Shown: positions 3,177 through 41,020, numbered from the stretch's first letter. The stretch is DNA of 64,000 nt from an uncultured Anaerolineaceae bacterium (GCA_964385355.1 CAYLOO010000003.1:2879-66878); one strand, 5' to 3'. Notes: generated by a model not told the origin, from the letters alone. Program-made: numbers and translations.

Positions 3177-3195
3177 TATAATTCAGCGATTGAAT
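3177..3195 (+). promoter_or_regulatory. TATAAT box (3177-3182) fused to palindrome ATTCA-GCGAT-TGAAT (3181-3195), upstream of gmd
   Basis: The sequence is TATAATTCAGCGATTGAAT, about 40 nt upstream of ATG 3234. It is nearly identical to TATAATTCAGCCACTGAAT at 12512-12530. No good -35 element was seen. Confidence 0.45.
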
Positions 3196-3233
3196 ATTGG
3201 TTCACAAGATTACATGCCAGAGGGAATTGGAAA

Positions 3234-4319
3234 ATGACGAAAGCTTTAATCACCGGTATCACGGGACAGGACGGCTCATATCTGGCAGAGTTGTTGTTGT
3301 ACAAGGGATATGAAGTTCATGGCCTGATTCGGATAACGAGTACGTTTAACACTGAACGCATCGACCATATCTACCAGGACCCACATGACCCCACTGCGAA
3401 GCTGTTCCTGCACTACGGAAACCTGTCGAATGGCGAGCAACTAACGAATATGATCTATAACATTCAGCCGGACGAGATCTACCACATGGGGGCACAATCG
3501 CACGTCAAAGTAAGTTTTGATATGCCGGAGTATACGGGTAACGTAACCGGATTGGGGACGACGCGCATCTTGGAAGCTGTAAGGCGAAGCGGGATTATTA
3601 CACGCTTCTACCAGGCGTCCTCCAGCGAGATGTTCGGCAATGCGCCGCCCCCGCAAAGTGAGGAGACGGTTTTCGAACCGCGCAGCCCGTATGCGATCGC
3701 GAAAGTGTACGCTTATTGGATGACTGTTAACTACCGTGAAGCTTACGATATGTTTGCGGCGAATGGGATATTGTTTAACCACGAAAGCCCTAGGAGGGGA
3801 CCGACGTTCCTGTCGCGTAAAGTGACACGGGCTGTGGCGAGGATCAAGGCCGGACTGCAGCACAAAGTATATCTCGGGAATCTCGACTCGCGCCGTGATT
3901 ACGGATATACGCCGGAGTACGTCGAAGTCATGTGGCAAATCTTGCAGCAGGATCAACCCGACAACTTCGTCATCGGAACTGGGGTCGCCCCAACCATCCG
4001 TGAGTTTGTCGAAGAAGCCTTTACCTACGCTGACATGGATTGGCAGGAGTATGTGGAGATCGACCCGCGCTATTTTCGACCGACGGAGGTCGATTACCTT
4101 CATGCCGACCCTTCAAAAGCTCGCCGTCAATTAGGATGGGAACCTAAGATTACATATAAGAAATTAGTGCCCATCATGGTTGATGCAGACCTCGAGGCGG
4201 TCGGGCAGGAACCCATCGGAGAGGGCTTGAAGATACTGGATGAGCACTTCGGCGATTGGCATCGCTGGGATACGGGGGTTACGGCAGTGATTCAGAACGC
4301 CGGTAACGGCGTGGATTGA
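3234..4319 (+). CDS. gmd: GDP-mannose 4,6-dehydratase
   Basis: 361 aa. The N-terminus [33 protein letters not shown] and downstream motifs ([31 protein letters not shown]) are canonical Gmd. RBS GAGGGA lies upstream. Confidence 0.95.
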
Positions 4320-4498
4320 ACTCTCTGTTTTGTGTAACTTGATTAGATCTTTGCAGAGAGCCTCTTTTCTGCCAGCGTTGTTACACATTTGAGTGGCTTC
4401 AGTCTTCTTGCTTGGCTTTTGTTAAAACCAATGGTCAGTCTTAGCCAACCACTATTCGAATCTGACGATACTGCGGTATCTATATAAAGGATCGAGGC

Positions 4499-38017: not shown

Positions 38018-38686
38018 TTATGAAAACCGATGTAATGCTGGGGATTGAAAATCGGATATCTTCTCCGCGAGGACGAAAGTCCAGAGGAGTGGGGTTTCAA
38101 CCTTTATGATTTTAAAGTGTTTGCTTATTAACGCCTTGAAACTTCGAACCGACCAGTGATTGATGTGCTCGGGAGTATTTCCAAGGTCGCGAATGTATTT
38201 TAATCGAGCGAGGTTACCTAACCGCCACCATGGTTCATTAGGGACACTAGCGAGGAGATATTTGCTCGTAACTCGAAAAGCCTCTTGAAGCACGGTGTCT
38301 GGCTCGCCTACGTGTTCCAGGACTTCAAGAATCGTGACTAAGTCAATTGAGTTGTCACCAAAAGGTAATTCTTGTGCGTTTCCGATGATGAAGGGGATAT
38401 CTCCAGCTTGGTCCTTGGCTAAATGTATCCGGGCTGGGTCTAAATCGATGCCCAGAGAAGGAACGACAAGATCTTTCCGGAGCCGTTCCAGAACCATGCC
38501 TTCACCACAGCCAACATCTAAGATCCTACTTGGTGAGATTGAGTCTACAAATGTATATATCGTATGAAAGAAGCGAGAATTAGCATACCGAACGATCCAA
38601 CTGGAGTCATGGTACTTGGCCTGGTACGCTGCCAGGTTTTCGCTAGAATCGCGCTTGTGCACAGGATTATTTTCCGCTTTATTCAT
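38018..38686 (-). CDS. Class I SAM-dependent methyltransferase (the only minus-strand gene called)
   Basis: Track ORF 38018..38899. The internal ATG at 38686 (MNKAENNPV) is preceded by GAAGGTGG. Motifs ILDVGCGEGMVLERL, GNAQELPFGDNSIDLVTILEVLEHV and a NEPWW tail. Confidence 0.8.
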   Translation of the reverse strand: MNKAENNPVHKRDSSENLAAYQAKYHDSSWIVRYANSRFFHTIYTFVDSISPSRILDVGCGEGMVLERLRKDLVVPSLGIDLDPARIHLAKDQAGDIPFIIGNAQELPFGDNSIDLVTILEVLEHVGEPDTVLQEAFRVTSKYLLASVPNEPWWRLGNLARLKYIRDLGNTPEHINHWSVRSFKALISKHFKIIKVETPLLWTFVLAEKISDFQSPALHRFS

Positions 38687-39101
38687 GATCAAATTACCAC
38701 CTTCGATAGATTTTATACTACTTTGAGTATGCTTCAAACCTGATCCCATCCATATGTAGAACGGAGAAGGTATTCGTGAGCTAGCTTGGGTCCTTCCAGG
38801 GTGAAAGATCGTGAGGAGTGAAGATTCTAATGTGTGGATTGTTATCAAGAACAGGTTATAAAGTAAAATAATTTTGCACGTCGCTTTAAAAAAACGCAAC
38901 CCAGTTAGTTCATCAACAATCTACATAGGAGCAAATGAGTTCGGTACGGATGATTATGCGGTTTAATTGGAGATAGCTCTCGATTTTCTGATTATTGGTA
39001 CCACCTGACTTTTTATCTCAAGGGTTTATATCAGCTTATTTCTGCCTGATAGAGATCTTGTCTGCATAATCAATTTATGAATATATTGGGAGTGACCAAC
39101 A

Positions 39102-40733
39102 TTGAAGGACTTCTATAAACGCTATCTTCGCAGATCTAATTACGCAAGGAATATGCGTTTTCTAATTCCAATCGCAGCTATTGGAATCACCATCCTTTTA
39201 TATAGTACGTCTCTCGGGGTAGGTGTCTCCCCTGACTCTACTCGCTACATTACGGCTGCCAATAGCCTGATTGATGGTACAGGTCTTCAAATATTGGCAC
39301 CAAATGGAGGGTTTGAGCCCCTCACATTATGGACTCCATTCTATCCCATTATCCTATCGGTTTTTGGGTGGTTAGGCGCCGATATCCTCAACGCAGCACG
39401 TGTCTGGAATGCCTTGATGCTGGGTGCGAACGTGCTCTTGATAGGTGCCCTGATAACTCGGCTTACATCAGAGTCGTGGATAGCGCCCCTGATCGGCTCG
39501 GTTGTGTTGCTGGTGTCAGTCGACGTTATATCTGTGCATGCATGGGCATTGACCGAACCAACGGCAATTTTCCTGGGATTCCTAGGGCTCCTGCTACTCG
39601 ATCTTTTCCTTGCTGATAAAAGAATCGGGTTCTTAATTACATCCGCTTTCTGTCTTGGTCTTGCATTGATAATCCGCTACGCGGCTTTTCCGTTTATAGC
39701 AGCCGGAATAATGTCTCTCATTATTTACCATCGTGAGGAACGATTAGGTAGAAAGATTGCCACGATTAGTGCTTATATTCTCCTATCCATTTTCCCTATG
39801 GTGGTTTGGATGTTCAGGAATTTGTCCCTGACAAGTAGTTCTATAAGCAGAACGATAAGACTACATGGCGACGCATTAGAACTGCTTGAGGTCGGGTTAT
39901 TTGTGGTTTCAGATTGGATATTGCCCGGCAGAATAATGGGAGAGATAAGGGAATGGATTGCAGGGTTGTTTCTTATCGGTTGGCTGATTGCGGCGATGAT
40001 TTATGGGAAAATGAGGTTAACTAACGGAGCAAAGTCATCACAAACTGTTCACGGCTCTTATATCTCTCAGATTCTGGTACTCTTTGTTTTGTGCTATTCC
40101 TTCATGCTGATTGTGGGAAAATTTTTCCTTGAACCAAGTTTTCCTATCAATAGCAGGATCTTTGTCTTACCCTATATCGCGATCGTGATAGTGTGTGTAG
40201 GGATGGCTTACGATGGCCTTAGAAAAGTTAGGCGTCGAACGCAGGTGCGAGTAAACGGGGAAAGAAGATACCTGGAATATTCCATTTTTGTATTTTTTAT
40301 ATTTATCGCGATGTGGGCGGGATTCCAAGTTATCCATACAGTAAAGTGGGTAAATGATGCGCATCAGGATAGCAAGGGATATGCCTCGCAGGCATGGCGC
40401 GCTTCACCTGAGATTAATTTTATTAAGGAGCTGCCAAAAGATTCGCTAATTTATAGCAACGGACCAGATGTTATTCTCTTTCTCACAGGGAGAACGACGA
40501 GATTGCTGCCCGATGAAGTCAACGACATTCAAAGTCCTTCAGATGCAGAACTCATCGCTATTGAAAATTTAGAATCTGAAATTAGAAGCCAGGGCGGGTA
40601 CCTGGTGTATTTCAGGGGAATAACTTGGCGCCGGACACTGAGTGAAGGGCAGCTCCACCAATTTCTTGAATTGGATTCCGTTTTTGGCACAGAATCCGGA
40701 TCAATATTCACGCTTAAGAAATTGAAACAATGA
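39102..40733 (+). CDS. Polytopic membrane protein, GT-C-fold glycosyltransferase candidate (paralogue of 35167..36723)
   Basis: 543 aa; TTG start with GGGAG upstream. Motif GVSPDSTRYITAANSLIDGTGLQ...WTPFYPIILS, and a C-terminal soluble domain (LIYSNGPDVILFLTGRTTRLLP). Line 40261-40320 is 33% GC by hand count. Confidence 0.5.
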   Translation: MKDFYKRYLRRSNYARNMRFLIPIAAIGITILLYSTSLGVGVSPDSTRYITAANSLIDGTGLQILAPNGGFEPLTLWTPFYPIILSVFGWLGADILNAARVWNALMLGANVLLIGALITRLTSESWIAPLIGSVVLLVSVDVISVHAWALTEPTAIFLGFLGLLLLDLFLADKRIGFLITSAFCLGLALIIRYAAFPFIAAGIMSLIIYHREERLGRKIATISAYILLSIFPMVVWMFRNLSLTSSSISRTIRLHGDALELLEVGLFVVSDWILPGRIMGEIREWIAGLFLIGWLIAAMIYGKMRLTNGAKSSQTVHGSYISQILVLFVLCYSFMLIVGKFFLEPSFPINSRIFVLPYIAIVIVCVGMAYDGLRKVRRRTQVRVNGERRYLEYSIFVFFIFIAMWAGFQVIHTVKWVNDAHQDSKGYASQAWRASPEINFIKELPKDSLIYSNGPDVILFLTGRTTRLLPDEVNDIQSPSDAELIAIENLESEIRSQGGYLVYFRGITWRRTLSEGQLHQFLELDSVFGTESGSIFTLKKLKQ

Positions 40734-41020
40734 ACCTGTAAGTAATCAGTAATAAGGGTACTTAAACTATATCTGGGGTAACTCTTCTTCGTCCTTCCAT
40801 CTTGCCGCACATTTCGTTGGTTTAGGTGGGGTGCCATTCAAGGCAAGTGAAGCTATTTGTCTTCAATCTGAGTTGTTCACGAAGTGTTATACTCAGCGTG
40901 GCCTTTATTTTGGGTCACAACAACACTTATTATGTGAAGTTCGATAGTGCTCTTGGCACGTCATAGCCATTCAGTATCTAAATAGTGACTTGGGCATTTT
41001 TACAGTGAATTGGATTTTAA

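What the first reader, a model, noticed from the sequence alone, without database searches (positions are those of the whole stretch)
3177..40983. Recurrent palindrome ATTCA-N5-TGAAT fused to TATAAT boxes: candidate operator for the locus regulator
Seen: TATAATTCAGCGATTGAAT (3177-3195, upstream of gmd) and TATAATTCAGCCACTGAAT (12512-12530, upstream of the MarR-like gene) match at 16 of 19 positions. Both contain a perfect ATTCA-N5-TGAAT inverted repeat that begins inside the -10 hexamer. AGTCAGTTATTGAAT (35104-35118, upstream of a GT-C gene) and ATTCAGTATCTAAAT (40969-40983, upstream of the SDR/sulfotransferase pair) are one-mismatch copies. All three of 3183-3195, 12518-12530 and 35106-35118 share TCAG-NN-A.TGAAT, which fixes 10 positions. 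My rough estimate is that one chance match to 10 fixed positions in about 3 kb of intergenic DNA has probability of order 0.003. Weaker relatives exist: the half-site ATTGAAT at 13104-13110 (upstream of fcl) and 62622-62628 (upstream of the Wzz-like gene), and TATAAT-GGAC-CGATTGA at 46789-46805. Inference: a dimeric winged-helix repressor, most simply the 12546-13076 product, occludes the -10 region. It would co-regulate itself, GDP-fucose supply and some GT-C/sulfation genes.
Basis: partly seen in the sequence, partly recalled or inferred. Interest (0 to 1): 0.65.

Follow-up and report, generated by a model that had tools for sequence, protein, structure and literature searches.

The report
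Conserved operator fused to promoter -10
Two promoters in this Anaerolineae sugar-coat gene cluster carry the same 23-base palindrome built into their -10 box, and comparison with about 80 related genomes shows it is almost certainly the binding site through which the neighbouring winged-helix regulator shuts off its own gene and the GDP-fucose pathway; the weaker look-alike copies are chance.

Summary
The core observation is real and far beyond chance. TATAATTCA-N5-TGAAT(T/A)TT(A/G) occurs at 12512-12534, in front of the 176-aa winged-helix gene, and at 3177-3199, in front of gmd.

- **Independent model.** A weight matrix trained only on 66 orthologous regulator promoters from other Anaerolineae genomes finds exactly these two sites in the window (38.3 and 35.2 bits). 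About 5e-7 such hits are expected by chance.
- **Regulator promoters.** 72 of 76 orthologous regulator genes carry TTGAC-N16-TATAATTCA-N5-TGAATTTT directly upstream. The other four get it through a gmd-regulator operon.
- **Other targets.** 14 of 16 gmd genes in reach have their own copy. Further copies sit before orthologues of the window's gmd-operon genes (ArnC-like GT2, flippase-like protein, 662-aa membrane protein).
- **DNA site, not RNA.** The arms are invariant, the spacer varies without base-pair covariation, and the left arm lies inside the -10.

Best reading: a dimeric wHTH autorepressor occludes the -10/+1 region and controls GDP-fucose supply plus a lipid-linked glycosylation module.

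The one-mismatch copies (35104, 40969, and an unlisted 39068) and the half-sites score -16 to -30 bits. They are not conserved in relatives and match chance frequencies across 816 kb of related loci.

This is a new, well-supported transcription factor/operator pair of a familiar kind. No matching publication was found.

The parts
12490..12495 (+). -35 hexamer TTGACT of the regulator promoter
   Evidence: Best sigma-70-like match in 1-20000. TTGAC is conserved at a 16-nt spacing in 60 of 72 orthologous promoters.
12512..12534 (+). Operator O-reg: TATAATTCAGCCACTGAATTTTA. The -10 hexamer TATAAT (12512-12517) forms the outer part of the left arm. The predicted start site is about 12524, inside the spacer.
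   Evidence: 38.3 bits with a matrix trained on other genomes. 72/76 orthologous regulator genes carry the same element.
12546..13076 (+). Regulator gene, 176 aa. N-terminal winged helix (residues 2-66), long helix 68-105, small family-private C-terminal alpha/beta domain (about 108-158).
   Evidence: Pfam HTH_24, MarR_2 and MarR. TIGR04176 scores 64.6 bits, below its cutoff of 88. Structure model. C-terminal domain has no PDB fold match and is found only in this family.
13155..14120 (+). fcl-like GDP-L-fucose synthase gene, cotranscribed with the regulator (78-nt gap, no terminator predicted)
   Evidence: Best NCBIfam hit is NF047922 (299 bits, below its cutoff of 500). An fcl orthologue is the next gene after the regulator in 33 loci. 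In most of 36 further loci one other SDR epimerase gene is the next gene and fcl follows on the same strand.
3154..3159 (+). Weak candidate -35 (TAGAGA) of the gmd promoter, overlapping the end of the ORF 1576-3156
   Evidence: In other genomes the gmd promoter has a good TTGACG at the same spacing.
3177..3199 (+). Operator O-gmd: TATAATTCAGCGATTGAATATTG, with the -10 hexamer at 3177-3182. The predicted start site is about 3189.
   Evidence: 35.2 bits. Retained in the syntenic relative L165 with a changed spacer and unchanged arms. 14 of 16 gmd genes in other genomes have the same element.
3234..4319 (+). gmd, GDP-mannose 4,6-dehydratase
   Evidence: TIGR01472 equivalog, 482.8 bits, above its cutoff of 415. 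Pfam GDP_Man_Dehyd.
4499..12402 (+). Probable remainder of the gmd operon: GT-C-like gene (4499-6376), ArnC-like GT2 (6373-7326), flippase-like gene (7323-8303), and 662-aa and 679-aa membrane proteins.
   Evidence: Same strand with small or overlapping gaps. Family assignments. In other genomes, orthologues of the GT2, the flippase-like protein and the 662-aa protein have their own operator-promoters.

Best explanation
The 23-bp near-palindrome TA(T/A)AATTCA-N5-TGAAT(T/A)TT(A/G) is the operator of the winged-helix protein encoded at 12546-13076. A dimer places its two recognition helices in successive major grooves. The ATTCA and TGAAT centres are 10 bp apart, one helical turn. The left arm is built out of the -10 hexamer and the right arm covers about +2 to +12, so the bound dimer blocks RNA polymerase. 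The protein therefore represses its own operon (regulator, fcl, and probably the Wzm/Wzt genes behind them) and the gmd operon (gmd, GT-C-like gene, ArnC-like GT2, flippase-like gene, two large membrane proteins). Together these control GDP-fucose supply and a lipid-linked glycosylation module.

Shown: the sites, their conservation, their promoter context, and the regulon content.

Inferred: binding by this particular protein, dimer stoichiometry, repression rather than activation, and release or enhancement by an unknown ligand through the family-specific C-terminal domain.
For: - A matrix trained only on other genomes picks exactly the two window sites (38.3 and 35.2 bits; nothing else above 5 bits; 5e-7 expected).
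- 72/76 orthologous regulator genes (56-89% protein identity) have TTGAC-N16-TATAATTCA-N5-TGAATTTT directly upstream. The other four have it before a gmd-regulator operon.
- Flanks, the -35/-10 spacer and the 5-nt core spacer are not conserved.
- The recognition helix is invariant in 45 family members.
- Regulon consistency: 14/16 gmd genes have their own site, and the other 2 lie downstream of the regulator. Extra sites precede orthologues of window genes 6373-7326, 7323-8303 and 8310-10298. fcl follows the regulator in nearly all loci.
- Specificity: no hit above 10 bits in about 680 kb of unrelated metagenome loci. In the regulator loci there are 96 perfect cores against about 1 expected.
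- The site-to-start-codon distance varies from 16 to 155 nt, while the position relative to -35/-10 is fixed.
- There is no base-pair covariation between symmetric spacer positions (G-C 22, A-C 19, G-T 15, A-T 7). The RNA hairpin is weak (-4.2 and -2.0 kcal/mol).
- The promoter is near consensus (11/12) and so needs no activator.
Against: - There is no experimental binding, footprint or transcription start data. The protein-site assignment rests on co-localisation and co-conservation only.
- No whole genome could be scanned, so the motif's genome-wide distribution is unknown.
- The window's gmd promoter has a poor -35 (TAGAGA), so its strength is uncertain, and read-through from upstream genes is possible.
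- The effector is unknown. The C-terminal domain has no significant sequence or fold match.
Confidence: 0.74

Rival explanations
1. The palindrome is a real protein-binding site, but it is recognised by a different factor, such as a global regulator or a specialised sigma/anti-sigma-linked factor. The adjacent wHTH gene would then be merely a regulated target.
For: Binding was not tested. The element includes a full -10 hexamer, so part of its conservation is explained by RNA polymerase alone.
Against: - The site accompanies this gene in 76/76 testable genomes, directly or through a gmd-regulator operon.
- The dyad symmetry extends well beyond the -10.
- The family's recognition helix is invariant, matching an invariant operator.
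- No other regulator gene is consistently nearby.
Confidence: 0.07
2. The protein does bind the site, but it acts as an activator or dual regulator rather than as a simple repressor.
For: The direction of regulation cannot be read from sequence. The window's gmd promoter has a weak -35, which could hint at a need for help.
Against: - The site spans the -10 to about +12, where a bound protein excludes polymerase.
- Orthologous promoters have consensus -35 and -10 boxes at 16-17 bp spacing, typical of strong promoters that are switched off, not on.
- This is not a MerR-type geometry, where the site lies between the boxes with a 19-bp spacer. That comparison rests on established knowledge.
Confidence: 0.08
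3. The palindrome functions as an RNA or DNA hairpin, for example a 5'-UTR stem-loop that affects stability or translation, and not as a protein operator.
For: The inverted repeat can form a 5-7 bp stem.
Against: - The left arm lies inside the -10 hexamer and would not be transcribed from this promoter.
- The arms never vary, so there is no compensatory change.
- The symmetric spacer positions vary independently.
- The folding energy is weak: -4.2 kcal/mol (z = -1.85) for the regulator site. For the gmd site the palindrome is not even in the minimum-energy structure.
Confidence: 0.02
4. The one-mismatch copies at 35104, 39068 and 40969 are weak, lineage-specific auxiliary operators that extend the regulon to GT-C and SDR/sulfotransferase genes.
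For: - All three lie in intergenic DNA upstream of genes. 0.30 copies are expected in the 4.4 kb of intergenic sequence, and P(>=3) is about 0.006.
- The 39068 copy is fused to CATAAT and followed by TGAATATATTGGGAG, resembling a degraded promoter-operator.
Against: - Matrix scores are -16 to -27 bits.
- 35104 is replaced by unrelated sequence in L081 although the flanking coding DNA is 94% identical.
- The right arm of 40969 drifts further from consensus in L161.
- 39068 loses its TGAAT in L163 and L161.
- Across 816 kb of orthologous loci, one-mismatch cores occur at chance level (20 observed, about 23 expected), while every accepted site has a perfect 10/10 core.
Confidence: 0.12

Closest known systems
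MarR-family autorepressors (e.g. E. coli MarR at marO, S. aureus MepR, S. pneumoniae FabT)
   Same: Winged-helix DNA-binding domain. Pfam MarR and MarR_2 score above their gathering thresholds. FabT, MepR and MarR structures are the best fold hits. There is a palindromic operator overlapping the gene's own promoter, with autoregulation plus control of an adjacent pathway.
   Different: Only the wHTH aligns: query residues 9-116 match residues 37-147 of MarR 3bpx, and TM-score normalised by query is at most 0.34. The N-terminal dimerisation helix of canonical MarR is missing. Instead there is a 38-residue helix and a small C-terminal alpha/beta domain found only in this family. The effector is unknown.
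NCBIfam TIGR04176, 'MarR family EPS-associated transcriptional regulator'
   Same: The N-terminal 100 residues match model positions 4-99 of 105 at E = 7e-18. Both are encoded inside polysaccharide biosynthesis loci.
   Different: The score of 64.6 bits is below the curated cutoff of 88. The protein is 176 aa with an extra domain, against about 105 aa. It comes from Chloroflexota. No operator for TIGR04176 proteins turned up in the literature search.
Rex redox-sensing repressor (N-terminal wHTH plus C-terminal Rossmann domain)
   Same: The domain order is the same: winged helix first, then an alpha/beta domain beginning with a beta-alpha-beta unit and a GxGxxA-like motif (GDGDIA). Both use a palindromic operator at promoters.
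   Different: The Rossmann resemblance is not significant (best PDB sequence hit E = 0.11 to glutamate dehydrogenase; no Foldseek hit below E = 0.09). The domain is only about 55 residues. The operator differs from the Rex box (TTGTGAA-N4-TTCACAA, recalled from memory).

Membership tests
MarR family (Pfam PF01047 / PF12802) | Winged helix-turn-helix scoring above the Pfam gathering thresholds | tested here: met
   MarR scores 27.5 bits (cutoff 24.6) and MarR_2 scores 32.4 (cutoff 27). HTH_24 scores 51.2 (cutoff 21.9) and is the best hit.
MarR family (Pfam PF01047 / PF12802) | Canonical fold in which N- and C-terminal helices flank the wHTH and form the dimer interface, about 140-150 aa | tested here: not met
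   The profile aligns query residues 9-116 to residues 37-147 of 3bpx, so the first roughly 36 MarR residues have no counterpart. In the model the wHTH sits at the N-terminus, followed by helix 68-105 and an extra alpha/beta domain. Foldseek TM-score normalised by query is at most 0.34.
MarR family (Pfam PF01047 / PF12802) | Palindromic operator overlapping its own promoter (autoregulation) | tested here: met
   Shown by comparative genomics only. A palindrome overlaps the -10 of the regulator promoter in 72/76 orthologues. Binding itself was not tested.
MarR family (Pfam PF01047 / PF12802) | Ligand- or oxidation-dependent release from DNA | not testable with these tools
   No effector could be inferred. 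The C-terminal domain has no homologue of known function.
TIGR04176 MarR_EPS (NCBIfam equivalog) | Score at or above the curated cutoff of 88 bits | tested here: not met
   64.6 bits, E = 6.9e-18.
TIGR04176 MarR_EPS (NCBIfam equivalog) | Encoded within an exopolysaccharide or surface-glycan biosynthesis locus | tested here: met
   The window is a large glycan locus containing gmd, fcl, Wzm/Wzt, NeuB, GT2, GT4, GT-C and sulfotransferase genes.
Rex-type wHTH + Rossmann repressors | C-terminal Rossmann-fold dinucleotide-binding domain | tested here: not met
   The only match is a non-significant one to a glutamate dehydrogenase beta-alpha-beta unit (E = 0.11). There is no significant fold hit.
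Sigma-70-type promoter with overlapping operator | -35 and -10 hexamers near consensus at 16-18 bp spacing, conserved across orthologues | tested here: met
   The window has TTGACT-16-TATAAT. Across 66 orthologous promoters there are high-information columns at TTGAC and TATAAT. The spacer is 16 nt in 60 of 72. Start sites are unmapped.

The most novel reading that the evidence does not exclude
The regulator defines an undescribed, class-wide Anaerolineae transcription-factor family. Its private C-terminal mini-domain (beta-alpha-beta with an invariant GxGD-A-D-CRL motif) would sense a nucleotide sugar such as GDP-fucose or GDP-mannose. This would give metabolite feedback control of GDP-fucose synthesis and of a polyprenyl-phosphate-sugar / GT-C envelope glycosylation module. 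Fusing half of the operator into the -10 hexamer would act as an evolutionary lock that has kept all 10 core operator bases unchanged across the class.
Probability: 0.25. Interest if true: 0.6.

Novelty: new member of a known kind. Interest (0 to 1): 0.45.

Why it matters
Anaerolineae are abundant in sediments, sludge and soils, but almost none are cultured or genetically tractable. Hardly any of their transcription factors have known sites.

This finding gives three things:
- a precisely defined operator;
- an inferred regulon (GDP-fucose synthesis plus an ArnC-like / flippase-like / GT-C-like module) conserved in hundreds of species-level genomes;
- direct sequence evidence that their housekeeping promoters follow TTGAC-N16/17-TATAAT.

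The prediction can be tested with one purified 176-aa protein and two short DNA probes. It also provides a handle for annotating fucose-containing envelope glycan loci in metagenome-assembled genomes. Mechanistically it is a classic repressor design, so the gain is in coverage of an unexplored lineage and not in a new principle.

Tried and rejected
- **RNA hairpin reading: rejected.** There is no covariation, the folding energy is weak, and the left arm is not transcribed.
- **Local duplication of one promoter within the window: rejected.** Similarity ends at the 23-bp element. Both contexts are independently conserved in other genomes.
- **Half-sites at 13104 and 62622 and the 46789 variant: rejected.** They occur at chance frequency, are not conserved, and score -29.5 bits.
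- **One-mismatch copies at 35104, 40969 and 39068: judged probably chance**. Their intergenic clustering is unexplained.
- **Function of the C-terminal domain: led nowhere.**
  - The PDB profile search found nothing significant.
  - The domain-only model and Foldseek gave a best E of 0.09, to LptE.
  - A profile search of 1.84 billion representatives found the domain only in this family.
  - The CxxxC idea was dropped because the second Cys is often S, T or A.
- **Literature.** Searches for Anaerolineae / MarR / GDP-fucose, Chloroflexi regulon / operator, TIGR04176, and Anaerolineae fucose / exopolysaccharide regulator found nothing relevant.
- **Metagenome scan with the GT2 at 36808.** It gave only one close relative (L081), so 39068 and 40969 had to be checked through homologues of the 39102 protein.

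
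Full report
**1. What is in the sequence**

- TATAATTCAGCGATTGAAT lies at 3177-3195, 39 nt upstream of the gmd start codon at 3234.
- TATAATTCAGCCACTGAAT lies at 12512-12530, 16 nt upstream of the start codon at 12546 of a 176-aa winged-helix protein.
- They agree at 17 of 19 positions.

A generic promoter scan of 1-20000 ranks these two places first and second: TTGACT-16-TATAAT (11/12) and TAGAGA-17-TATAAT (10/12).

The listed one-mismatch copies at 35104 and 40969 are present. A third copy at 39068-39082 was not listed.

**2. Organism and locus**

Homologues of the regulator are numerous: more than 7,900 scored hits. Wherever a source names them, they come from Anaerolineales, Anaerolineae or Chloroflexota metagenome-assembled genomes.

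The window is one long, almost entirely plus-strand glycan-biosynthesis island.
- gmd passes the TIGR01472 equivalog cutoff.
- It is followed by a GT-C-like gene, an ArnC-like GT2, a flippase-like protein and two large membrane proteins.
- Next comes the regulator, then an fcl-like GDP-fucose synthase and Wzm/Wzt ABC-transporter genes.
- After these there are methyltransferases, three NeuB/cytidylyltransferase sets, sulfotransferases, and several more GT2 and GT-C genes.

**3. Test by orthologous loci**

I fetched 80 genome loci around orthologous regulator genes with 56-89% protein identity.

Reading the upstream regions shows TTGAC(C)-N16-(G)TTATAATTCA-N5-TGAATTTT(A/G)GA in nearly all of them. 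The flanks, the -35/-10 spacer and the central 5 nt are not conserved.

Counted strictly:
- 72 of 76 regulator genes with enough upstream sequence have a site above 20 bits directly upstream.
- In the remaining four (L006, L008, L009, L011) the site lies in front of a gmd gene that immediately precedes the regulator, so they form a gmd-regulator operon.
- The recognition helix VAVGTVNWHLKR is invariant across 45 aligned family members. This fits an operator whose ten core bases never change.

**4. Independent test of the window sites**

I trained a 23-nt weight matrix only on the 66 non-window promoters.
- In the window it gives 38.3 bits at 12512 and 35.2 bits at 3177. The minus-strand readings of the same two palindromes give lower scores.
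- Nothing else in the window scores above 5 bits.
- By exact convolution, a hit of at least 35.2 bits is expected 5e-7 times per window.
- In about 680 kb of unrelated metagenome loci there is no hit above 10 bits.
- In the syntenic relative L165 (regulator 87% identical) the gmd site is retained. Its spacer has changed (GCGAT to GTGGT) and its arms are unchanged.

**5. Regulon consistency**

- **gmd.** Of the 16 fetched loci that contain a gmd gene, 14 have the promoter-operator directly upstream of it (TTGACG-N17-GTATAATTCA-N5-TGAATTTTG). In the other two, gmd lies downstream of the regulator on the same strand.
- **fcl.** The gene right after the regulator is fcl in 33 loci. In 36 loci it is another SDR epimerase, with fcl following on the same strand in most of them.
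- **Other targets.** The remaining extra sites precede orthologues of genes that sit in the window's gmd operon:
  - the ArnC-like GT2 at 6373-7326 (66-68% identity; L033, L034, L053);
  - the flippase-like protein at 7323-8303 (44%; L061);
  - the 662-aa membrane protein at 8310-10298 (47%; L072).

The same functional set is therefore placed under the same operator by different gene arrangements. This is the standard comparative-genomics criterion for a regulon.

**6. DNA site or RNA structure?**

- The arms are invariant, so they show no compensatory change.
- The partly conserved symmetric spacer positions (R at +5, Y at +9) vary independently: G-C 22, A-C 19, G-T 15, A-T 7.
- The left arm is part of the -10 hexamer and would not be transcribed from this promoter.
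- The RNA stem is weak: -4.2 kcal/mol for the regulator site. For the gmd site the palindrome is not used in the minimum-energy fold.
- The distance from the site to the start codon ranges from 16 to 155 nt, while the position relative to -35/-10 is fixed.

Together these point to a transcription-level protein operator.

**7. Anatomy and mechanism**

Read symmetrically, the element is TA(T/A)AATTCA(R)(Y)-N-(R)(Y)TGAATT(T/A)TA.
- Each arm is 9-11 bp, and the arms differ at essentially one position.
- The ATTCA and TGAAT centres are 10 bp apart, one helical turn. This is what a wHTH dimer needs to reach two successive major grooves, and the AT-rich outer parts are available to the wings. That geometric reading is inference from established knowledge of MarR-type complexes.
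- The -10 hexamer is the outer left arm, and the predicted start site (about 12524 and about 3189) falls in the spacer. A bound dimer must therefore exclude RNA polymerase.
- The promoters are near consensus, so an activator is not needed. I conclude repression, including autorepression.

**8. The protein**

- **Family scores.** Pfam HTH_24, MarR_2 and MarR pass their thresholds. NCBIfam TIGR04176 (EPS-associated MarR) matches the first 100 residues but scores below its cutoff, 64.6 against 88 bits.
- **Model.** The AlphaFold model (pLDDT 77.6) shows an N-terminal wHTH (helices 2-19, 25-32, 36-49; wing 53-66), a long helix 68-105 and a small C-terminal alpha/beta unit.
- **Fold and sequence matches.** Only the wHTH matches solved MarR, FabT, MepR and ArsR structures (TM-score normalised by query at most 0.34). 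The PDB profile alignment starts at MarR residue 37, so the canonical N-terminal dimerisation helix is absent.
- **C-terminal domain.** It has an invariant G-x-G-D-x-A-D-x-C-R-L motif.
  - It gives no significant PDB sequence hit. The best is E = 0.11, to the Rossmann beta-alpha-beta of glutamate dehydrogenase.
  - It gives no significant fold hit.
  - In a search of 1.84 billion representatives it occurs only in this architecture or in fragments of it.
  - Its role is unknown. It could serve dimerisation, effector binding or both.

**9. The weak copies**

The matrix scores are -16.1 (35104), -26.6 (39068), -15.9 (40969) and -29.5 (46789) bits.

Conservation in the nearest available relatives:
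- **35104.** In L081 the adjacent coding DNA is 94% identical, but the site aligns to ATTTCGTTTAAGAGT.
- **40969.** In L161 the site reads ATTCATTATTTAGAA, with the right arm moving away from TGAAT, although the intergenic region as a whole is about 85% identical.
- **39068.** It loses TGAAT in L163 and L161.
- **13104 half-site.** It is not conserved in L002, L003, L164 or L165. ATTGAAT occurs 16 times against 16.8 expected.

Across 816 kb around orthologous regulators there are 96 perfect cores (about 1 expected) but only 20 one-mismatch cores (about 23 expected). Functional sites therefore appear to need all ten core bases.

Against this, all five window copies with at most one mismatch lie in the 4.4 kb of intergenic DNA. 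0.30 are expected there, and P(>=3) is about 0.006. I cannot explain that. I leave about a 12% chance that one or more of them is a weak or decaying site.

**10. Comparison with known systems and novelty**

In design this is a classic autorepressor with a palindromic operator overlapping the -10, like MarR-family systems.

In membership it is only loosely MarR. The wHTH criterion is met, the canonical fold criterion is not, and it falls below the TIGR04176 cutoff.

Four literature searches found no description of this regulator, its operator or a GDP-fucose regulon in Anaerolineae or Chloroflexi. That is absence from a partial library, not proof of novelty.

I rate it a new member of a known kind. 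It is well supported and useful for annotating an almost unstudied class, but it is not mechanistically surprising.

**11. Verdict**

The GT-C/sulfation extension is not.
- Confidence in the main explanation is about 0.74. Interest is 0.45.

Noticed in passing
It is fused to a CATAAT box and followed by a TGAATAT..TTGG tail like the gmd site. It looks like a promoter-operator with a 1-nt deletion in the left arm and lies upstream of the 543-aa protein at 39102. It is not conserved in L163 or L161.
   Followed up: partly
window, all intergenic regions (4,370 nt in 30 gaps): All five ATTCA-N5-TGAAT copies with at most one mismatch lie in intergenic DNA and none in 59.6 kb of coding sequence. 0.30 are expected in intergenic DNA, and P(>=3) is about 0.006. 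No such enrichment of one-mismatch copies is seen in 80 orthologous loci. Unexplained.
   Followed up: partly
window 40872-40897: The block GTTGTTCACGAAGTGTTATACTCAGC is almost identical in the distant orthologous locus L161. It contains TATACT in a GTTATA.TCAG context resembling the -10 region of the operator-promoters. It is probably the real promoter of the SDR/sulfotransferase operon.
   Followed up: no
window 4499-6376 vs L165 3740-3750: The GT-C-like (PMT_2) gene between gmd and the ArnC-like GT2 is absent in the syntenic relatives L165 and L166, where GT2 follows gmd directly. It is a lineage-specific insertion into the regulated operon.
   Followed up: no
L006, L008, L009, L011 at about 4676-4705: In this clade the operator is perfectly symmetric (TATAATTCAG-N3-CTGAATTATA), so a TATAAT box is present on both strands. 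A single site serves a gmd-regulator operon.
   Followed up: partly
L039 5930-5965; L044 about 5922-5945 and 5971: Some genomes have two operator copies at the regulator promoter. In L039 they overlap (ATTCAATCATTGAATTCAGGAGTTGAAT). In L044 a second copy lies upstream of the -35. This may indicate cooperative binding or looping.
   Followed up: no
window 12546-13076, residues 113-131 of the protein: The C-terminal domain has an invariant motif (I/V)xGxGD(I/V)AD(I/V)CRL. The glycine and aspartate pattern resembles a Rossmann GxGxxA loop, and one cysteine (C123) is invariant. The second cysteine of the CxxxC is often S, T or A. The domain occurs only in this family.
   Followed up: partly
L014, L016, L020, L025 and about 30 other loci, gene directly after the regulator: In about half of the genomes a roughly 337-aa SDR epimerase/dehydratase (HVLITGGAGYIGS...LLFGGESL) sits between the regulator and fcl. 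This suggests that the pathway product may be a modified GDP-6-deoxyhexose, not plain GDP-fucose, in those lineages.
   Followed up: no
window 21599-22669, 44204-45079, 25924-26694, 42961-44211, 49425-50129: The window has two NeuB-type synthases and three CMP-sugar cytidylyltransferase-like genes. It also has a sulfotransferase (41823-42899) and at least six PMT_2/GT-C-like membrane proteins. This is an unusually complex surface-glycan island for one locus.
   Followed up: no
window 113-3156, 8310-12402, 55478-58705: Several large proteins (488, 526, 662, 679, 533 and 524 aa) have no Pfam or NCBIfam match at E <= 0.001 (the first four) or no Pfam match at E <= 1e-5 (the last two). The 662-aa protein is a conserved member of the inferred regulon.
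   Followed up: no
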